DNA of 64,000 nt, taken from positions 1,054,001 to 1,118,000 of the forward strand of contig JADEYG010000015.1 of assembly GCA_016906335.1 (NCBI GenBank). Reading direction: 5' to 3'. Each line of letters opens with the position of its first letter. The first letter of the stretch is position 1. This DNA is from Novakomyces olei. Taxonomy: Eukaryota. The position numbers were made by a program, and so were the translations under genes. The notes beneath the pieces are model-generated. The model worked only from the letters and a program-made list of their open reading frames with translations, had not been told where the DNA came from and made no database searches. This document shows, piece by piece, positions 6,513 to 64,000 of the stretch.

Positions 6513-7115
6513 TAAAATCTGCAATAAAATCTGCAAATCTACAAATAAAATCTGCAAATAAACCTGCAAATAAAATCTACAAATAAATCTACAAATAAAG
6601 TCTGCAAATAAAATCTGCAAATAAACCTGCAATAAAATCTGCAGTTAAACCTGCAATAAAACCTGCAAATAAATCTACAAATAAAATCTGCAAATAAAAT
6701 CTGCAAATCTACAAATAAAACCTGCAAATAAACCTGCAAATAAATCTGCAATAAAACCTGCAAATAAATCTACAAATAAAACCTGCAAATAAATCTACAA
6801 ATAAAATCTGCAAATAAACCTGCAATAAAATCTACAAATAACACCTGCAAATAAACCTGCAAATAAATCTACAAATAAATCTGCAATAAAATCTGCAAAT
6901 CTACAAATAAAACCTGCAAATAAACCTGCAAATAAATCTGCAATAAAACCTGCAAATAAATCTACAAATAAAACCTGCAAATAAACCTGCAAATAAATCT
7001 GCAATAAAACCTGCAAATAAATCTACAAATAAAATCTGCAAATAAACCTGCAATAAAATCTACAAATAAATCTGCAAATAAAGTCTACAACAAAATCTAC
7101 AACAAATCTACAAAC
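6513..7115. repeat. ~600-bp A-rich satellite of 11-13 bp units (AAA[T/C]CT[G/A]CAAAT)
   Basis: Continuous tandem variants of CTGCAAATAAA and CTACAAATAAA. Confidence 0.97.
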
Positions 7116-36775: not shown

Positions 36776-38450
36776 GATGGCAAGACAGGTTTTACGACGA
36801 GCTTTTGCCTTTAAAATTAGCGGACAGATGGGTGTTTGGAAAATAGCCCGTTTGTTTTCGTTGTTTGATTGATTTTATTTATTTATTGATTTATTGATTT
36901 TACCTTTGCTCATTTTGTGTCTTTATTTCATTCTTAGTGGAGAATGTGTTTATATATATGTTTTACTTGCAAATATTAATGTTTAATCTGACCCGTACCG
37001 GAAACCGAAATGAGACATTTCCGGTGTTCGCCACATTTCCTAAAACGATTGTGTCAGGCGTGGAAATTAAACAGAAAGCGGAAACCAGGTGAAAGTAGCG
37101 AAAAAATGAAAAAGATTTTTACTTTAGCAGAAGGGGAGACAATAAAACTAGTGAAACAAAATGAGGAGTACGTAATACAATAGGGGTGATCATGTGTGAA
37201 TTCTTTAATTGATCGGTTCTTTTGCCTCCCTCCTCTTTTGCTTGTCATAAACGCTCTGACTTAAAATGCCTCTCCGCACTAGAACATGCAAAAAATACGT
37301 AATTATTTCCCTGTTTGCAATCTGTCAAAGTTTATGCCAAATTCATGCCTTCCTTTCTCTCCTTGAAGGAGCTAGAGATCGCAACTTAAGCGTCGTTTTG
37401 GCTATTGAGATCTAGAGCGTTACGTATAGACACGCAGGGCGAGTATAAGGAAACATAAGGTGCTACAGTATAGTAACAATGCTAATTGGACCGTTTCTGT
37501 ATAAATTTTTCTGTCTAGTCAATGTTCTCAGCGAACCCCTTTTGACACCTGTGTAGAGCGTCAAATTGTGACTTGAAATCGATCGAAATAGAAACTCGCT
37601 TACTATTTATAAAGCAGGAAAGTCGCTAAGTCGGTTTGTTAGTCAACGAATCTGTCAGGGTTTTCTTTTATTAATCTCAAATTTCGTGATTTTGTCGCTG
37701 ACCGAGATGGAATTGTTCCCTTGTGCACAACCGAGTTCGGTAGCCGACGTGGCCAGTCGGCACCAATCTGATAGTGCTTTGATCGCAGGCTGGTGTCGAA
37801 GAGTCAGTTTTGTTTCCCTAAATTTGAATACATTATAAGTCTGTCGCGCTATTAATACTGTACAATGGAGGAAGTCAGTGATTCTGGAAGTGTAAAGCAT
37901 TATCACCTTTATCATAGACAACCCACAGATGATAACATTGATATAAACCAACAGAGAGATCTTATTTAGAGATGATTTTACATGGCTTGTAATACTCTAT
38001 TTGATGCGAGGCTGATTGCTCGACTATCTGCAGATTTTGGGTTCTTTCAAAAGCGTATCTAATGCAAAATGTTATAAGCAAGAAATATAATAACAAATCC
38101 GAACACCGAACAGCATGTGTATGGAATATATTATTAAACATGTACCACATTGTCAAGAGAAACGATTCAAATGCAAATGACCAAATTGTTGGAAGTATTT
38201 TTGATCTTGCTTCTATTCATTTCTCGTTTCTTGTTTCTCGTTTCTCATTCTTCATAATTTTTTACTATATTTATCTGTTTATTAATATATTTATTTCAAT
38301 TTATTATTCAATTTATTAATCAATTTATTATTCGATTTATTAATCAATTTATTAATCAATTTATTATTCTATTTATTTACCTATTTACTCGAATTTTTTT
38401 CACGATTTTATGGTAAATTATGCAAAGGCGCCTTCCACAACCATTGCAGC

Positions 38451-40550
38451 ATGCTTAGCTCTTATCAACGTCTGGGATTGCTGCTGCGGAGACTACATTT
38501 ACTAGACCGCTGTAGTGCGCAGCTGCATACGAGCTCATGGCGTAGCAATGCTCGATCCGATAGCACATTCGGCCAAAAACTGGGCAAAATTGCCGAATCG
38601 AAAAGAAGAGAATCTGCATCATCATCGCATACTCCCAATCAATCCACGCACAAAAGGGGTCGGCCGCGCAGTACAGCGTCGCGATCAGCAGCGACTAATC
38701 GCAAGGCGTCTAACGCGAGAAGGAGGAGCAGTTCGATACCAGAACTGAATGCGAGACCGGACAGAGTGACTGCTAATAGCACTGACTCGGCGGCATTTGT
38801 CGAACCAGCAGACCCTGCAAACAAGGCGGCGAAACCAAAGAGCAGTAGTGAAAAAAAGGAAGCTTTTCCTCTAAATATTGATTCTCAATCGTGCGGGAAA
38901 CCGGTCCCTGCTGACCCGAAAGAACTTTCTCATCAGAAACCGCCTGCTTTGGCTCATGGTTTAGACCGTGTCCTGTTTAACCCGGGGGTTTATCTTTTGC
39001 AAGATCCAAGGTCAAAAGTCTACAATTTTGATCCGTATCTGCAAGAAATTATGCAGAATGAAGAGTTTGATTTCGATGCACTAGAAGACTACGTTACATC
39101 CTCCCGGGACACAAAGCTACATGCTCTTGCAAAGAAGAATGGCTCGACGTTTACGGGATCGACTAGCACTCTGACGGGTGTTCTTTCTCAGCTACATCAT
39201 CTGCTTTCAAATTGGCGTAAAATCAATACTTCACAATTGAGCCAAAGCTATAGCAAAGTCCGTAGCGAATTTGGAGGCCATGTTCGAGCTCCATGCGCTG
39301 TTTTTTTGCGTTACCGAGACGGTGTTTACTCTGTTGATGCGGATAAATCAGGAGAGATGGATAGTGCTACAATACTGACAATGATGGGTCGGTCCATGGA
39401 GCGAATGCTAACAAAGACACCAGAGGTATTTGAAAGGTACCGCAAGATTACAGACGACGGGCGCTCTGAAGCAACGATGAATGGCCCTGATTCTTTTGAG
39501 AAGGAAGCGGATGTTCATCACTACACAAGATTTGGTAACATTTTAATGCGTGCTCAACTGGACTGCTTTGACCATCGGCTACCTGGGTCTGGTGTTTTTG
39601 ATCTAAAGACGCGTGCTGCCCTGGGAATCAGACTTAATATTAGGGACGCACGTACCCATTCAGGCTATCAGATATCATCGCTAAAGGGCCTCTTTGAATC
39701 GTTTGAGCGTGAGTATTTTGACATGATTCGCAATGCTTTTCTCAAGTATAGTCTGCAGGTTCGCATTGGACGGATGGATGGAATTTTTGTTGCTTTTCAT
39801 AATACTGAACGTATTTTTGGGTTCCAGTATGTTCCACTTGAAGAGATGGATCGTAGCTTACACGGCAATTCTTACGTGGCGGAAAAGGAATTTGTCATGT
39901 CATTGGCCATGCTTAACCGATTATTGCAACAAGCAATTGAACGTTATCCGGGCAGGTCAATTCGTTTAATGTTCCAAACAATGCCAGAAGAATCTGGGTC
40001 ACAAGGACCCACAATGCGATTATTTATCGAACCCATTGATGACGAAGAAATTGATCGCCGACAGACTACGAGTCTGTATGCCATGTTCAACGAAGTTGCC
40101 AATGAAAAACAACCAACCGATACCCAAAAAAATGCTTTAGAGAAGCTTATTGGTAACAATGAGATGGAGGATTTGACGTATATCCATATCCATGGCACTA
40201 ACGTTGTCAATGGCCAAGAGGTCAGTCCCTCCGACTCTCCCTCTATTACTGGTGATCAAACCAAATGGAACTTTTTGTACAATATGCAGGCTACTAGCAA
40301 TGCGAACGAAATACCAAGTATTGCCTCGATGTACCGGAGTGCTGATTACCAGCGACTCGATTTCTTCCAGCACAGTTTGTCTGCTGGTAAAAAGCAATCG
40401 CGTATGCAGCGACGACTTTTGCGGTTTGCTCAGCGCGGCCGCAAATGGTTGGAAGAGACGAAAGCACAGCAAGCGGATAATGAGCCGATACTGTTCCGTC
40501 CTAATTTTGCGCATGATTTTACACCGAGCACGGAAAAGACAGACGCTTAA
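38451..40550 (+). CDS. PET127: Mitochondrial 5'-3' RNA exonuclease Pet127
   Basis: Basic presequence; 'LAHGLDRVLFNPGVY.LQDPRS.VYNF', 'MRAQLDC', 'VFDLKTRA', 'LKYSLQVRIGRMDGIFVAFHN'. Confidence 0.95.
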   Translation: MLSSYQRLGLLLRRLHLLDRCSAQLHTSSWRSNARSDSTFGQKLGKIAESKRRESASSSHTPNQSTHKRGRPRSTASRSAATNRKASNARRRSSSIPELNARPDRVTANSTDSAAFVEPADPANKAAKPKSSSEKKEAFPLNIDSQSCGKPVPADPKELSHQKPPALAHGLDRVLFNPGVYLLQDPRSKVYNFDPYLQEIMQNEEFDFDALEDYVTSSRDTKLHALAKKNGSTFTGSTSTLTGVLSQLHHLLSNWRKINTSQLSQSYSKVRSEFGGHVRAPCAVFLRYRDGVYSVDADKSGEMDSATILTMMGRSMERMLTKTPEVFERYRKITDDGRSEATMNGPDSFEKEADVHHYTRFGNILMRAQLDCFDHRLPGSGVFDLKTRAALGIRLNIRDARTHSGYQISSLKGLFESFEREYFDMIRNAFLKYSLQVRIGRMDGIFVAFHNTERIFGFQYVPLEEMDRSLHGNSYVAEKEFVMSLAMLNRLLQQAIERYPGRSIRLMFQTMPEESGSQGPTMRLFIEPIDDEEIDRRQTTSLYAMFNEVANEKQPTDTQKNALEKLIGNNEMEDLTYIHIHGTNVVNGQEVSPSDSPSITGDQTKWNFLYNMQATSNANEIPSIASMYRSADYQRLDFFQHSLSAGKKQSRMQRRLLRFAQRGRKWLEETKAQQADNEPILFRPNFAHDFTPSTEKTDA

Positions 40551-40925
40551 AAATGGATACCATTGGTGCTGGCGGGTTTGCTTGGCAGAGTTAAAATTAT
40601 TTTTCATAGAGTTTATAGACTTGGAAATACAAAAGGGTATAAAAATTAATCACTGGCAATGACTATATTTTCTTCATGATTGGCGTGCCGAAATGGAACC
40701 ATATTTTGTTTTTGGCAAGAGAAATTTACAAAACCGCAGCTCTGATACCATAGACTTCGTACGTAGTATGCGTGAAACGAATATTAGCAAAAAAATTACA
40801 TTTATAAATTGATTAATACAACGCTCAATGATAACTTGTAAAGGACGTAATAAATGCTTCATGCAACTCGTTTCGACATCAGTCCAACGATGCATAAGCT
40901 ATAGATGCCACTTGTGTTTTAAACG

Positions 40926-41575: not shown

Positions 41576-41657
<82 letters not shown>

Positions 41658-41659
41658 AT
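41576..41659. repeat. (AAAT)n microsatellite, ~21 copies
   Basis: Perfect run in the divergent DUF2015/NUP170 promoter. Confidence 0.97.
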
Positions 41660-41833
41660 ACATATACATTATTTTAGCAGCTGCTGCATTTGCTGGAAAC
41701 TGAACACATCAACACAAGCAAAAGAGCAATTGGCTCAGAGTAGGTTGGTCTTTCATTCAGGGCAGCGTCTGCTGGCGCACGCGCGAAAAGGTTTACTGCA
41801 ATTTTTTGAGCAGCCTGAAATTCGGCTCCTAAT

Positions 41834-46157: not shown

Positions 46158-46365
46158 ATGGTACTGTCTTGCCTCATTGCGCGTTACGTTTCGGCTTTTC
46201 ACTCTGGTTTAGACGTGTGGATTGCCGCTACCGCGAACCAAGAGATATGGCAGTGTGTGAATAGTCGTACTGAGCATAGTAAAAATGTACTAGATGATGG
46301 TCAAATGAATACGAGCAATTGATATTGCAACTGTGTATAAGCTGGCTGCCATTAGTTTAATATAA

Positions 46366-46525
46366 ATAATAATAATAATTATTATATTATTATATTATTA
46401 TATTATTATATTATTATATTATTATATTATTATATTATTATATTATTATATTATTATATTATTATATTATTATATTATTATATTATTATATTATTATATT
46501 ATTATAAAAGTATTATTATATTATA
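46366..46525. repeat. (TATTA)n minisatellite, ~25-30 copies
   Basis: Near-perfect run upstream of eL28. Confidence 0.97.
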
Positions 46526-46600
46526 TCTTTTGCAGAGCTACAAAAGCAGTCACGCTCACAAACAAAATCATATCAAACACAAGCGACTGCAAACACCAAA

Positions 46601-47047
46601 ATGTCGACCAACTTTAGCAACGACCTCGCGTGGATCGTGACACGGCGCACGTCGCGCTTCAATGTGACTCACCGTGAGAGCGGTGGTTTCCGTTTCTCTA
46701 CGGAGCCGCTCAACTTGAAGAACGTTGCCGCGCCGCAATTGTCGGGACTTTCATCGGATCAGGCGTACGGCTTGGACTTTGATGCTGCACAGGACCAGTA
46801 TGTGCTTTCGCTAAAGAACGCGGACAAGACTTTCAAGCCAGTCGAGTCCCTGACCAAGATCACGCTGGACAAGGGCTTGTCGGGACGCGAATTGGCTTAT
46901 CGCGTTCAGCAGGAGACGACTGACAAAGATTACCGTGCTGATCTGAACCGTGCAGGTGTAACCCGCGCTCTCCGCTTGGCACGTGCCCAAAAGCCGGCCA
47001 AAGAGCCTTTCGCCAAGAAGCAGCGCGGACGCGGCCGAAAACATTAA
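46601..47047 (+). CDS. RPL28: 60S ribosomal protein eL28 (L28e), intronless
   Basis: 'SNDLAWIVTR', 'FSTEPLNLKN', 'YRADL...RA', basic tail. Confidence 0.85.
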   Translation: MSTNFSNDLAWIVTRRTSRFNVTHRESGGFRFSTEPLNLKNVAAPQLSGLSSDQAYGLDFDAAQDQYVLSLKNADKTFKPVESLTKITLDKGLSGRELAYRVQQETTDKDYRADLNRAGVTRALRLARAQKPAKEPFAKKQRGRGRKH

Positions 47048-47744
47048 GCATTAGATGTTGAAAATTTACACACGTATTACATATACTCTTGTGCACCCTA
47101 ATAAATAATCCCAAGATTGTGCAATCCGCATGATTGGAGTGACCAGTGCGTTCCAGTGCTGCCGAGTGCTGCCCAGTGTATGGCATTCACTGGACGCTAC
47201 GATTGAATACATTAAACTAAAAGAATTGCTTCTACATTGACCACAATTCGTGCAGTCGCTAGTAGACGTCATTCATAAGCACTGCACAATTAATTACCAC
47301 TGACTAGTGAATTACTCTGTAATTTATTAAATACAGTTGAATTTATCTGCAATATTGGCCTGTATAGTGTGTTGGCAGGATAATAAATTGTTACCAACGT
47401 TGACGTCGTATACCGACTACACTGTACCGCAACACTGTACCGCAACCCTACCCTACTTCCGGACAAACGGTCCAGTACGCAGAAAACCCTGCCCAACCTG
47501 CCCCATATTTTTCGAGGGCGCGTGAATCACAAAAGGCGCGGGGAAATACGAGTTTGGGCGGGGCAGCGAATAGAATTGGGTGCGTTAAGCAATTGCTTTT
47601 GCAGGTGTCCCTTTGGCTTATAATAATATCTTTAATAATATAAATATTAATTCACAATATATTTCGTCGTAAATACCGTCTTGTCCGTCCGTCTGCCTGC
47701 ATTGCAAATCTCGGGCCTTTCCCCTTAGCGGCACGTAAATAACT

Positions 47745-49681
47745 ATGGTCAAAGCTGTCGTTCTTGGCGCGTAAGTTATTTGCCCAAGTTTGCCTTTGGC
47801 CCTACTAACTGGTGCAGGTCAGGTGTGTAAGAGTGCCGTCTGCTGTATTGTACTAACCGATACTCGCGTAAAAGGCGGAATCGGCCAGCCTCTGTATGTG
47901 CCGTGAGACTAGAGCAGGCGTACTCGTTGCAAAACCCTATACTCTTGCTGCCTGCTGCACGTGACTTGCAATTGGGCTCAATGGCATTCGCGCAGAGTCT
48001 ATCAGACGATACTGCTCTGCTATGACGCTTAGCGGGACAGCTTTGTCTGGTGGGATACGACTCTTCATGCCACCCACTATTGCGCTCTCAGTTTACGTGC
48101 AAACACAGCTCGCACAAGGGTCTTGCTCTAGTCGCTGTTTGATCTAATCACTTTTCTTTCTAACTTTATCAGATCGCTTTTGCTCAAAACCTCTCCGCTT
48201 GTTGATTCATTGGCACTTTATGATATCGTCAACACTCCCGGCGTAGCGGCAGATTTGAGGTAAACCCTAACCCTGCACTCTTTTCTACTCGACTGTTTTT
48301 GGTCTCTTTACTCGGTTTTGCAGTTTGTTTGCAGTTGTCTGCAGTTTGTCTGCAGTTTGTCTGCAGTTTTCACTCTGCTCTGAATATCAGAACAATCTCG
48401 TCTAGCGTAATTACTGATTACAGCCATATCTCTACGCCCGCTGTGACGAAAGGATATTTGCCCAATCAGAATGGAGGCATTGAAGCCGCGCTCGACGGTG
48501 CCGACGTCATTGTTATTCCCGCGGGAATTCCCCGCAAGGTGATCCGCTCCCCCGTCCATCGGCAATCAATGGCTAACCTTCCGTCTTGTGCAGCCGGGAA
48601 TGACACGTGATGACTTGTTCAATACAAACGCGAGTATTGTAAAGGGCCTGGCTCAATCGATCACCAAATTTGCTCCCAAGGCATTCGTTCTTGTCATCTC
48701 CAACCCGGTTAATTCTACAGTGCCCATCGTTGCCGAAATCTTCAAGGAGGCTGGAACTTTTGACCCTCGTCGCCTGTTTGGCGTAACGACGCTCGATGTC
48801 GTGCGTGCATCGACATTTGTCGCCGAGGCTGCGGGTATAAAAAACCCTGACGATATTTTCGTGCCTGTAGTTGGCGGACACTCGGGGGTGACAATTCTGC
48901 CTTTGCTCAGCCAAACTAAACCGGCCGTGAAATTGGACCAGCCAACGATCGAGGCGCTTACTCACCGCATCCAGTTTGGAGGTGACGAGGTCGTCAAGGC
49001 CAAAGACGGAGCTGGAAGTGCTACACTTTCTATGGCTTTTGCCGGGTTCAAGTAGGTTGCACTTTAATTACGTCCAATTTCTCATATAAATTGCTACAGT
49101 TAACTTGCTAACAATCACAGGTTTGCTGAGCAGATTATAAAGGCCGTAAAGGGCCAAAAGCATGACGTGCAGCCCACTTTTGTTTACCTACCAGGCGTAC
49201 CTGGAGGCGAAGCTATCGCAAAGAAGTTTGGCGTCGATTTCTTCTCCGTCTTGGCTGAACTAGGCGTAAGTAAACCCGATCTTTGCATTCGCCATTTGTG
49301 TTTAGTATTTTGTGGTTTGCTTGTAATATTTGGGGTTGTCTATCATTTCAATACACTTGCTCTTATAGAGCAGATTTTTTATGTCTCGTTTTTTTTTGAC
49401 CTGTCTCTTTTTCACGATTTCGATATTTGATATATTGTTCGTTTAAGCCCAAGTGGCGCTCAAGCGGCCTCTCTTGTTCGTTTGCATTTTTTTAAATAAA
49501 TTCATACGATTTAATCGTAGCGATTGATTCACTAATACGACAGCCTGACGGTGTTGCAAATGTTGAGCCATTTGGCAAGCTTTCTTCGTATGAAGAAGGA
49601 CTGTTCGACCAGGCTATCACAGACCTAAAGAGCAACATTGACAAGGGCGTCAAGTTTGTTCATAGCCCGCCTTCAAAGTAA
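47745..49681 (+). CDS. MDH: NAD-malate dehydrogenase with no presequence (cytosolic type), 8 exons incl. 5-nt and 19-nt exons
   Basis: Spliced [22 protein letters not shown]; '[17 protein letters not shown]', '[10 protein letters not shown]', '[10 protein letters not shown]', '[13 protein letters not shown]'. Confidence 0.96.
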
Positions 49682-56310: not shown

Positions 56311-56419
<109 letters not shown>

Positions 56420-56803
56420 TTTAAAAGCCGTAGATGACTTGTATCATTGCAAATCTGAGCGCAACAAAGATCTTCAAAATTAGAGAATCTTTGGGCTTAG
56501 ATTAGATAAAGGAGTCTCCAAACAATTCTCGTCCGTTGATGGGCTCGACGGTACAGTGTTTTTTTGACCTACTAAGCGAGACCCAAAAAATAAATATTTT
56601 AGCTTTTTGAACTAAAGGTTCATCAATTTGATTTTATTTTAAGGTACGATGACAGGCACAAGGACGTATCGAGCAATCCAGACTCGAGCCGTTCCATACT
56701 GCTTGAGTTTTAATGCACTTACTAAATACTACCAGGTTTTGAATCTTAATCTCTGCTTAAACGACATGCTTGGATATAGAAGTTTACGCCCCGATCGGCA
56801 AGC

Positions 56804-62832: not shown

Positions 62833-64000
62833 TCAAACTGCCTGCATTTCCACTTGCTCGTAACCTTGCGCCCTAACCCTAAACAAATGCCTCCAATCGG
62901 CCCCTGAGTATAGGATACGCGTTACACGATGCCACCAGGGCACAGGCCCATTGGCCCGATGAGCCGCGAAATTCGGTTTCTGCCAGAACCTGAGCAGGAG
63001 ACTGCTGCATACAACAGATACACTGGAAAGTGCCATTGCGGCTCCCGCCATCATTGGATGCAGGGAAACACCAAACGGAACAAAGATGCCCATGGCAAAA
63101 GGTACAGCGATTAAATTGTAGCAAAAAGCCCACAATAAATTAAGTTTTATGCGCCGGAAAATCGCTCTTGAAAGCACAATTGACGCAGGAATATCGAGTA
63201 GATCGTCCCTCATTAATACGATACTGGCAGCGTCCATTGCCACGTCTGTGCTTGAAGCAAATGCAATACCTATGTCTGCAGCAGCCAGGGCCGGAGAGTC
63301 GTTGATTCCGTCGCCCACCATTGCCACTGCCTTGCCTCCTCTATTATTATTCAATTCTGCTTGGAATTTTTGCACTAGATCCTTCTTCCCTGCAGGCAAA
63401 ACGTCGCCAAAGACTCGATCAGTATCAATCCCCACTTGCCGGGCCACGTGCAAGGCGACCCGAGTACTGTCTCCAGAGACAATGCCGACACGGATTCCCA
63501 GCTGCTTCAGCACCTGCACTGTACGAGCTGCCTGAGGCCGTAGAGAGTCCCCGAGGATACAAGATCCGGCGTACGCGCCATCAACACCCAAACAAACGTG
63601 CGTGTATCCACTGGCCTCTGCGACAGCCGCCATTTCGTCAAAGACGGGGGTAAAGGAGTACCCATCCTCGGCCAAAAACGAGGGCTTGCCCACGAGAAAG
63701 GTGTGCGTGGCGGAACGTGCGCGCACGCCTTTGCCAGGCACTGCCTGCAAACTGTATCCAACAAAAGGAGAGTCCGGGTCAGTATTAGGGTTAGGGTCAA
63801 AATTAGGGTTAGGGTCAGTATTAGACTCAGGGTTAGGGTCAATATTAGAGTTAGGGTTAGGGTTATCATTTCCCAGTTTATTGCCCAGCTTTTCTAGCGC
63901 AATTGCCCTGAGAGCAAGGCCGATAGGGTGCTGTGTCGCACTCTCGACCTGATAGATGTACTGCCAAAACTGCAGCTCGTCAGCCAGCGTAGTGGCCGAG
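62833..64000 (-). CDS. CCC2: P1B Cu-transporting ATPase Ccc2, 5' partial
   Basis: Frame is open from 63999: 'QHPIG', 'VPGKGV', 'SGD', 'MVGDGINDSPALA', 'YNLIAVP', 'MALSSVSVV'. Confidence 0.93.
   Translation of the reverse strand, partial: SATTLADELQFWQYIYQVESATQHPIGLALRAIALEKLGNKLGNDNPNPNSNIDPNPESNTDPNPNFDPNPNTDPDSPFVGYSLQAVPGKGVRARSATHTFLVGKPSFLAEDGYSFTPVFDEMAAVAEASGYTHVCLGVDGAYAGSCILGDSLRPQAARTVQVLKQLGIRVGIVSGDSTRVALHVARQVGIDTDRVFGDVLPAGKKDLVQKFQAELNNNRGGKAVAMVGDGINDSPALAAADIGIAFASSTDVAMDAASIVLMRDDLLDIPASIVLSRAIFRRIKLNLLWAFCYNLIAVPFAMGIFVPFGVSLHPMMAGAAMALSSVSVVCSSLLLRFWQKPNFAAHRANGPVPWWHRVTRILYSGADWRHLFRVRAQGYEQVEMQAV
63773..63865. repeat. Telomere-like (TTAGGG) 18-bp-unit repeat inside the CCC2 coding sequence
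   Basis: On the minus strand, GACCCTAACCCTAATACT-type units x4-5. Confidence 0.9.

What the first reader, a model, noticed from the sequence alone, without database searches (positions are those of the whole stretch)
47894..48172. MDH intron 3 folds into one ~227-nt nested hairpin that collapses it to normal intron size
Most long introns here are AT-rich simple repeats. This 279-nt intron is GC-richer and non-repetitive, with a colinear series of nested complementary segments: GACTAGAGCA 47907-47916 / TGCTCTAGTC 48124-48133 (perfect 10 bp); CTCTTG 47942 / CAAGGG 48115; TGCACGTGA 47956 / TTACGTGCA 48093; GCAAT-TGGG 47968 / CCCA..ATTGC 48073-48083; TGGCAT 47982 / ATGCCA 48067; AGAGTC 47994 / GACTCT 48059; ATCAGACGA 48001 / TTGTCTGGT 48043; CTGCTA 48017 / TAGCGG 48030 closing a 7-nt loop. 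Many pairs are G-U wobbles, which points to selection at the RNA level. Only 13 nt 5' and 39 nt 3' lie outside the rod (~52 nt), close to the short-intron size in this window. Inference: a splicing-regulatory structure for the adjacent micro-exons, an intron-hosted ncRNA or small-RNA precursor (an ANANNA box AGACGA at 48004 and ACA triplets near 48103-48116 loosely fit H/ACA), or an introner/MITE-like insertion.
Basis: partly seen in the sequence, partly recalled or inferred. Interest (0 to 1): 0.78.

Follow-up and report, generated by a model that had tools for sequence, protein, structure and literature searches.

The report
Long hairpin inside a fungal MDH intron
One unusually long intron of a fungal malate dehydrogenase gene is predicted to fold into a single long hairpin, most likely the worn remnant of an inverted-repeat DNA insertion that splicing tolerates, and nothing found here shows it has a function of its own.

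Summary
The structure is there. 47894-48172 is a 279-nt intron (GTATGT...CTAAC...CAG) of an 8-exon malate dehydrogenase gene.

It beats shuffled sequence only moderately:
- MFE z = -2.9 (7 of 1000 shuffles fold as well).
- Rod length: 5 of 1000 shuffles reach it.
- DNA-level arm complementarity: 5 of 2000.

Comparably long predicted rods occur at three other places on the + strand of the same 64 kb, one of them inside a long ORF.

Both strands fold equally well (-90.9 and -91.8 kcal/mol), with 9 versus 11 G-U pairs. No Rfam hit falls in the intron, there are no C/D boxes, and the proposed H box is paired. No second copy turned up in the window or in the contigs of the likely source run, so it is not an active introner or MITE family.

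The basal 12-bp stem does meet the published positional rules for a yeast "zipper stem", at the lower limit. However, an equally long intron of the same gene (278 nt) has no such stem. No relatives or RNA data were available.

Best reading: a decayed palindromic insertion in a lineage-specific intron, tolerated because it zips shut. Interest is low to moderate.

The parts
47894..48172 (+). Intron 3 of the malate dehydrogenase gene (279 nt, phase 2 in the Leu codon of GIGQPL|S)
   Evidence: Sequence read. The spliced 8-exon model gives 330 aa that aligns over residues 1-330 to a full-length fungal MDH. There is no RNA evidence.
47894..47899 (+). 5' splice site GTATGT
47907..48133 (+). Imperfect inverted repeat that forms the predicted RNA rod (two arms of about 110 nt)
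   Evidence: MFE and centroid structures, helix list with pair probabilities, DNA-level arm alignment with 5 of 2000 shuffles as good
47907..47918 (+). 5' strand of the basal 12-bp stem (zipper-stem-like)
   Evidence: Cofold dG -18.7 kcal/mol, pair probability 0.72. 6 of 700 shuffles have an equally stable stem in an allowed position.
48122..48133 (+). 3' strand of the basal 12-bp stem
48023..48029 (+). 7-nt apical loop of the rod
48160..48164 (+). Branch-point box CTAAC (branch A at 48163), 9 nt from the 3' splice site
48170..48172 (+). 3' splice site CAG
47875..47893 (+). Exon 3 (19 nt), immediately upstream of the intron
   Evidence: gene model
47818..47822 (+). Exon 2, a 5-nt micro-exon (GTCAG) needed to keep the reading frame. 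An 8-nt variant that uses the next GT is also in frame.
48173..48259 (+). Exon 4 (87 nt), immediately downstream of the intron

Best explanation
Intron 3 of this MDH gene is a single-copy intron at a position I found in no other MDH locus. Its central 227 nt are a decayed inverted repeat. The most likely history is that a palindromic piece of DNA (a foldback or MITE-like element, or a repair-generated hairpin) landed in what had been an ordinary intron of about 52 nt, and has since drifted to about 77% arm complementarity with many indels. In the pre-mRNA the two arms pair into one rod. [quoted passage not shown] On this reading the rod is a by-product that makes the insertion tolerable. It is not a regulator, a snoRNA or a mobile introner family.

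Shown: the fold and its robustness, moderate excess over shuffles, strand symmetry, single-copy status, stem geometry.

Inferred: origin by insertion, and tolerance through zipping.
For: - The rod is reproduced and stable: MFE -90.9 kcal/mol, 85 pairs, mean pair probability 0.81, kept in longer contexts.
- The arms are complementary at the DNA level without counting G-U: score 12 against 4.4 +/- 1.8, 5 of 2000 shuffles.
- The two strands fold equally well, -90.9 (z = -2.87) and -91.8 (z = -3.22). Transition-type mismatches are balanced: G:U on the + strand 5, A:C on the + strand 7. G-U pairs are 9 of 85 against 11 of 90. This is what neutral decay of a DNA palindrome predicts, and it is not what selection on the + strand RNA predicts.
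- The 13 + 39 = 52 nt outside the rod carry all the splice signals and match the gene's short introns of 47, 52, 55 and 69 nt.
- The intron position is not shared. 71 of the 80 metagenomic MDH loci cover this site, and 0 of the 71 have an intron there. 24 break 5 nt upstream at Q|P, and 1 breaks at P|L.
- The basal stem meets the published zipper-stem position rules, so splicing should tolerate the insert.
Against: - There is no clear target-site duplication. The flanks GCCGTGA and GCTGTTT share only 4 of 7 bases.
- No second copy exists anywhere I could look, so no donor element is known.
- No close relative was available to show an 'empty' 52-nt intron. The best MDH identity was 76% among proteins and 74% among metagenome loci.
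- The second sample, X2, is identical over 47820-48554, so there is no variation to read.
- The statistics are only moderate. Similar rods occur elsewhere in the window, including inside a long ORF, so chance is not excluded.
- Balanced G:U and A:C counts rest on 12 sites.
Confidence: 0.42

Rival explanations
1. Chance. This is an ordinary long intron whose sequence happens to fold into a long rod, picked out because the reader scanned a whole 64-kb window.
For: - GC-adjusted MFE is unremarkable against natural 279-nt windows: 104 of 1594 are as low.
- Rods of at least 66 bp occur at 4 loci on the + strand alone. One lies inside the Pet127-domain ORF at 40241-40519 (76 bp, z = -1.5).
- Nominal p values are only 0.003-0.009.
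- 824 of 1000 shuffles bring the 5'SS and the branch point as close.
Against: - Three correlated statistics all fall in the top 1% of shuffles.
- The rod fills the intron almost exactly between the splice signals.
- It is the most stable of the non-AT-repeat rods in the scan (residual -14.0 against -8.1 for the one at 40241).
- The gene's two other long introns show nothing like it (z = -0.85 and -0.70).
Confidence: 0.25
2. Selected zipper structure. [quoted passage not shown] That would allow efficient intron-defined splicing of a 279-nt intron sitting next to 19-nt and 5-nt exons.
For: - The basal 12-bp stem starts 13 nt from the 5'SS and ends 29 nt from the branch A, for a total linker of 42 nt. 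That is inside the 42-85 nt range, with the at-least-10 and at-least-20 nt limits used to define yeast zipper stems (passages of PMC12350175).
- Only 6 of 700 shuffles have one as stable.
- The structural branch-point distance of 22 lies within the range reported for efficiently spliced yeast introns, 18-28 (passages of PMC2536676).
- Very short neighbouring exons make intron-definition constraints plausible.
Against: - Intron 7 of the same gene has the same length (278 nt) and the same 5'SS-to-branch distance (269 nt). It has no zipper stem and folds no better than shuffles. Intron 4 (164 nt) likewise.
- There is no strand asymmetry and no excess of G:U over A:C.
- A 12-bp stem would be enough, so an 85-pair rod is not explained.
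- The linker sits at the very bottom of the allowed range, and is 39 nt if counted to the CTAAC box.
- No covariation or RNA data were available.
Confidence: 0.2
3. Intron-hosted non-coding RNA: a snoRNA, or a Dicer-type small-RNA precursor, processed from the excised intron.
For: A long, nearly continuous RNA duplex is the kind of substrate a Dicer enzyme cuts (general knowledge). ACA and ANANNA strings are present.
Against: - No Rfam family matches the intron at E <= 10 on either strand.
- There is no C box or D box.
- The candidate H box at 48004-48009 lies in a helix with pair probability 0.99. Forcing the H and ACA boxes unpaired costs up to 10.5 kcal/mol and still yields a single rod, not hairpin-hinge-hairpin-tail.
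- Equal folding of both strands argues against an RNA-level constraint.
Confidence: 0.05
4. A member of an active or recently active multi-copy introner or MITE family.
For: It is longer than neighbouring introns and has a stable predicted fold, as described for fungal introner-like elements (passages of PMC3609843). It has a perfect 10-bp terminal inverted repeat. Its position is not shared with other MDH genes.
Against: - There is no other copy in the 64-kb window (blastn, word size 7; best other hits are 11-17 nt, E >= 2).
- In the 17.8 Mb of contigs of run X1, laid at 80% likeness or more, only the source contig covers the intron. The same run did yield a 54-nt paralogous MDH piece and a 32-nt AT-rich piece elsewhere on the stretch, so short matches were detectable.
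- There is no clear target-site duplication.
Confidence: 0.03

Closest known systems
Zipper stems of Saccharomyces cerevisiae long introns (RPS17B, RPL7B and others)
   Same: [quoted passage not shown] The stem is more stable than in 99% of shuffles.
   Different: Here the whole intron interior is one 85-pair rod, not a short stem enclosing branched structure. The organism is a distant, Taphrinomycotina-like fungus whose normal introns are about 50 nt. A same-length intron in the same gene lacks any such stem. No probing, mutational or conservation evidence exists.
Introner-like elements (ILEs) of Dothideomycete fungi
   Same: It is longer than regular introns, has canonical splice signals and a stable predicted secondary structure, and sits at a position not shared with other lineages.
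   Different: ILEs are defined by many near-identical copies. This intron is single-copy at 80% likeness or more in the data available.
Internally symmetrical (stw)introns of Hypoxylaceae
   Same: The intron aligns with its own reverse complement. Arm identity is about 73-77% in both cases. No flanking tandem duplication is seen. The donor G, branch A and acceptor G lie outside the pairing. Neither has an Rfam family.
   Different: The Hypoxylaceae introns are families of sister copies with 45-55 nt terminal repeats and a conserved 10-nt palindrome, and many are nested twin introns. Here there is one copy, arms of about 110 nt, and no internal second intron.
MITEs and foldback transposons inserted in introns
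   Same: A perfect 10-bp terminal inverted repeat, a hairpin-forming body, and a size of about 230 bp.
   Different: No target-site duplication is recognisable and no other copies were found.

Membership tests
Zipper stem (as defined in PMC12350175) | [quoted passage not shown] | tested here: met
   The stem 47907-47918/48122-48133 starts after 13 nt. It ends 26 nt before the CTAAC box and 29 nt before the branch A. The definition was read in passages of the paper.
Zipper stem (as defined in PMC12350175) | Total linker between the stem, the 5'SS and the branch point is 42-85 nt | tested here: inconclusive
   42 nt counted to the branch A, exactly the lower limit. 39 nt counted to the start of the CTAAC box. 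I could not tell which count the paper uses.
Zipper stem (as defined in PMC12350175) | At least 6 bp with high helix confidence, and more stable than in shuffled controls | tested here: met
   12 bp, dG -18.7 kcal/mol, predicted pair probability 0.72. 6 of 700 shuffles are as stable, and 153 of 700 have any zipper stem of 6 bp or more. Confidence is computational only, with no DMS data.
Zipper stem (as defined in PMC12350175) | The stem promotes splicing (mutation and rescue) | not testable with these tools
   No RNA run was listed for this organism. This needs experiments.
Introner-like elements | Many near-identical copies in unrelated genes of the same genome | tested here: not met
   No second copy in the window. 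No other contig of run X1 (17.8 Mb, likely the source) lies on the intron at 80% likeness or more. No whole genome was held.
Introner-like elements | Longer than regular introns, with a lower folding energy | tested here: met
   279 nt against 47-69 nt for the gene's four short introns. MFE z = -2.9.
MITE | Terminal inverted repeats flanked by a target-site duplication | tested here: inconclusive
   A perfect 10-bp terminal inverted repeat is present. The flanks GCCGTGA and GCTGTTT share 4 of 7 bases, so there is no convincing duplication.
MITE | Multi-copy family | tested here: not met
Box H/ACA snoRNA | Hairpin-hinge(ANANNA)-hairpin-ACA tail architecture with single-stranded boxes | tested here: not met
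   The fold is a single rod. The candidate H box at 48004-48009 is paired (probability 0.99). Constrained folds with the boxes unpaired remain a single rod. No Rfam hit at E <= 10. The architecture itself is recalled from general knowledge.
Box C/D snoRNA | C box (RUGAUGA) and D box (CUGA) near the ends | tested here: not met
   No match to either motif, or to one-mismatch C-box patterns, on the + strand of the intron. The motifs are recalled from general knowledge.
Internally symmetrical (stw)introns of Hypoxylaceae | Families of highly similar sister introns with 45-55 nt terminal inverted repeats | tested here: not met
   Self-complementarity is present, but there are no sister copies. Features were read in the abstract and section 3.5.
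Hairpin small-RNA precursor (mirtron-like) | Discrete small RNAs mapping to the two arms | not testable with these tools
   No RNA holder was listed.

The most novel reading that the evidence does not exclude
The rod is a maintained splicing device in an undescribed deep-branching ascomycete lineage. By zipping a 279-nt intron down to the 52-nt geometry that this organism's intron-defining spliceosome expects, it would make recognition of the adjacent 19-nt and 5-nt micro-exons possible. It may itself have started as a hairpin-type introner that created this lineage-specific intron.
Probability: 0.12. Interest if true: 0.5.

Novelty: new member of a known kind. Interest (0 to 1): 0.25.

Why it matters
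If the rod were selected, it would extend the yeast zipper-stem principle to a distant fungal lineage with very short introns and micro-exons, where the limits of intron definition are tight. If it is a relic insertion, it is one more snapshot of how introns grow, or arise, from hairpin-forming DNA. As the evidence stands it is a well-formed but single, unreplicated example. Its main value is as a candidate to revisit once genomes of relatives or RNA data exist.

Tried and rejected
- **Whole-genome copy search.** No genome is held for this window. I used blastn within the window and contigs of public runs instead.
- **RNA evidence.** No RNA holder was listed among the 4 runs found, so splicing, intron retention and small RNAs could not be examined.
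- **Variation and covariation.** The only independent holder, X2, is identical over 47820-48554. X3 and X4 touch only a short AT-rich piece at 47629-47665.
- **Orthologous introns.** The protein search (best 76% identity over the 152-aa exon) and the metagenome scan (best 74%) found no close relative. The 80 loci fetched served only to compare intron positions.
- **Earlier notes of this scan.** Nothing on this genome, its look-alikes or this sequence.
- **Automatic intron catalogue of the window.** A permissive version gave 115 mostly spurious candidates. A strict one gave 13 and missed the MDH 5' introns. I dropped it and used the MDH gene's own seven introns as the comparison set.
- **Two-strand window scan.** It timed out. 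Only the + strand was scanned.
- **tRNA scan of the window.** No genes found.
- **Alternative 3' splice adding a PTS1-like tripeptide after the C-terminal ...PPSK.** The regex found none.
- **Literature on hairpin introns in Taphrinomycotina, or intron gain by inverted repeats.** Two listings added only the Hypoxylaceae paper already in hand. I make no claim about what is or is not in print beyond these searches. Supplementary files of the papers were not seen.

Full report
**What is there**

The interval 47894-48172 begins GTATGT, carries CTAAC at 48160-48164 and ends CAG. Removing it, together with six other GT...AG intervals (47, 52, 164, 55, 69 and 278 nt), gives a 993-nt reading frame. 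Its 330-aa product aligns from residue 1 to 330 with a full-length fungal NAD-malate dehydrogenase at 67% identity. The motif GIGQPL|SLLLK is joined exactly across this intron. The interval is therefore an intron by homology. No RNA run was available to show it directly.

The host is a fungus. Other ORFs in the window carry Zn2Cys6, Pet127 and Mid1 domains, among others. A 1325-aa Nup170-like ORF has its best named hits in Pneumocystis, Schizosaccharomyces, Protomyces and Neolecta, at only 34-38% identity. That indicates a deep, Taphrinomycotina-like lineage with no close annotated relative.

**The fold**

RNAfold gives an MFE of -90.9 kcal/mol, and the centroid structure is nearly identical. 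They form one nested rod from 47907 to 48133 with a 7-nt loop at 48023-48029, interrupted only by internal loops and a 3-bp side hairpin. Mean probability of the 85 MFE pairs is 0.81. The apical half is above 0.85 in almost every helix, and the basal 12-bp stem is at 0.72. When the intron is folded inside 515-nt and 824-nt stretches of pre-mRNA, 66 of 85 and 81 of 85 pairs persist.

**Is it more than chance?**

Against dinucleotide shuffles, yes, but moderately:
- MFE z = -2.87, with 3 of 200 shuffles as good; z = -2.9, with 7 of 1000.
- The longest unbranched stem-loop has 66 pairs, against 23 +/- 10 in shuffles. 5 of 1000 reach it.
- A Watson-Crick-only alignment of the left arm with the reverse complement of the right arm scores 12 against 4.4 +/- 1.8. 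5 of 2000 reach it.

These statistics are correlated.

Against real sequence the picture is weaker. I folded 1594 windows of 279 nt (step 40, + strand only; the two-strand run timed out). Of these, 104 have an equal or lower GC-adjusted MFE. 7 windows, at 4 loci, have rods of at least 66 pairs: this intron, an AT-rich repeat at about 46281-46600, position 161, and 40241-40559 inside the Pet127-domain ORF. The rod at 40241 has z = -1.5. A reader scanning 64 kb should therefore expect to meet a few such rods. What sets this one apart is that it is the most stable of the non-AT-repeat ones, and that it fills an intron almost exactly.

1. *G-U wobbles as a sign of RNA-level selection.* The + strand fold has 9 G-U among 85 pairs, and the - strand fold has 11 among 90. 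The - strand folds as well as the + strand (-91.8 kcal/mol, z = -3.22). In the DNA-level arm alignment, mismatches that are G:U on the + strand number 5, and those that are A:C on the + strand (that is, G:U on the - strand) number 7. There is no strand asymmetry, so this argument fails. The pattern is what neutral decay of a DNA palindrome would give.

2. *'Collapse' to normal intron size.* The geometry is as described. 13 + 39 = 52 nt lie outside the rod, and the gene's short introns are 47, 52, 55 and 69 nt. But the shortest-path distance from the 5' splice site to the branch A in the MFE structure is 22, and 824 of 1000 shuffles give a distance as short or shorter. Compaction as such is not special.

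   [quoted passage not shown] The basal stem 47907-47918/48122-48133 (12 bp, -18.7 kcal/mol) qualifies at the lower limit, with a linker of 42 nt counted to the branch A. 153 of 700 shuffles have some zipper stem of at least 6 bp. 47 have at least 12 bp. Only 6 reach -18.7 kcal/mol.

   Against necessity, intron 7 of the same gene is 278 nt long with the same 269-nt distance from 5'SS to branch point. It has no zipper stem and z = -0.70. Intron 4 (164 nt) has none either, with z = -0.85.

3. *H/ACA or other ncRNA.* cmscan of 47000-49500 against Rfam at E <= 10 returned two weak hits, both outside the intron. There is no C or D box. ACA occurs at 48037, 48103, 48105 and 48114, and ANANNA at 47906, 47911, 48004 and 48055. 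The proposed H box at 48004 lies in a 10-bp helix with pair probability 0.99. Forcing box pairs open costs 1.4-10.5 kcal/mol and still yields one rod, never hairpin-hinge-hairpin.

4. *Introner or MITE.* blastn of the intron against the window (word size 7) finds only itself. No whole genome is held. Run X1 (17.8 Mb of contigs, probably the source of this DNA) was laid at 80% likeness or more on 47600-49300. Apart from the source contig, it gave only a 32-nt AT-rich piece and a 54-nt piece of a paralogous MDH exon. Nothing lay on the intron. A second sample, X2, carries the locus with no differences over 47820-48554, so there is no variation to analyse. The element is therefore not a recently active family.

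**Intron position**

71 of the 80 metagenomic MDH loci fetched (best identity 74%) cover the GIGQPLSLLLK region. None has an intron at this site. 24 break just before PLS, which is the widespread Q|P intron 5 nt upstream. One breaks at P|L. 46 are contiguous, many of them probably transcripts, though 13 are loci longer than 2.5 kb. As far as this distant sample shows, the position is lineage-specific.

**Reading**

Four facts are explained most simply by an old palindromic DNA insertion into a short, lineage-specific intron:
- DNA-level self-complementarity with no strand bias;
- a perfect 10-bp terminal inverted repeat;
- single-copy status;
- a residual 52 nt that looks like a complete short intron.

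The resulting RNA rod would be a tolerated by-product, and it happens to satisfy zipper-stem geometry. I put this at about 0.42, pure chance at 0.25, a selected zipper at 0.20, a processed ncRNA at 0.05 and an active repeat family at 0.03.

The intron's G+C of 0.49 exceeds that of the two other long introns (0.41 and 0.35). It lies within the range of the short ones (0.33-0.58), so it does not discriminate between the readings.

**Comparison with what is known**

In how it would work, the closest match is the yeast zipper stem (PMC2536676 and PMC12350175, passages read; RPL7B from the listing). In form, the closest matches are two fungal intron types:
- Introner-like elements, described as multi-copy, longer than regular introns, stably folded and quick to degenerate (PMC3609843, passages).
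- The internally symmetrical (stw)introns of Hypoxylaceae, with terminal inverted repeats of about 73% identity, no flanking duplications, no Rfam family, and symmetry that is not required for splicing (PMC8469720, abstract and section 3.5).

The present intron fails the multi-copy criterion of both. I therefore describe it as resembling them, not as a member.

**Verdict**

This is a real and robust predicted hairpin of moderate statistical weight, with no evidence of function or mobility. It is a new example of a known kind of thing, and its interest is low to moderate.

Noticed in passing
window 47818-47822: The MDH reading frame needs a 5-nt micro-exon (GTCAG), or an in-frame 8-nt variant that uses the next GT. 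It sits between introns of 47 and 52 nt and is followed by a 19-nt exon. This is a very small exon for a fungal gene.
   Followed up: partly
window 49266-49543: Intron 7 of the same gene is 278 nt, almost exactly the length of intron 3. It is T-rich (G+C 0.35), branched and no better folded than shuffles (z = -0.70), with no zipper-type stem.
   Followed up: yes
window 48260-48423: Intron 4 (164 nt) holds 4.7 copies of an 11-nt tandem repeat, TGCAGTTTGTC, at 48319-48369. It begins with two telomere-like CCCTAA units (about 48264-48275).
   Followed up: partly
window 40241-40559: A predicted rod of 67-76 pairs lies inside the Pet127-domain ORF (38286-40550), with z = -1.5. I used it as a control. 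It shows that long MFE rods arise in sequence with no reason to be structured.
   Followed up: yes
window 46308-46573: A very AT-rich tract (G+C 0.14) with about 18 copies of ATTATTAT lies just downstream of the Nup170-like ORF. It gives the longest predicted rods in the window scan (78-88 pairs), simply because the repeat is self-complementary.
   Followed up: partly
window 63776-63865: Degenerate TTAGGG-like repeats (about 13 units, 64% matches) lie near the right end of the window. This may be a subtelomeric or interstitial telomere-like tract.
   Followed up: no
window 6513-7114: A 600-bp minisatellite with nested periods of 12, 24 and 61 nt (unit TAAAATCTGCAA). Other long microsatellites are (ATT)37 at 56312-56423 and (AAAT)22 at 41576-41664.
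   Followed up: no
window 48962-49015 (run X1, record 3): A second contig of the likely source run matches 54 nt of the large MDH exon with 5 differences, so the genome probably has a paralogous MDH gene. Its intron structure could not be read.
   Followed up: no
L064:2749-2776: One metagenomic MDH locus has a GTACGT...TAG interval of only about 28 nt between the Pro and Leu codons of GIGQP|LSLL, 2 nt from the position of the intron studied here. It is probably a tiny intron in an unrelated eukaryote.
   Followed up: no
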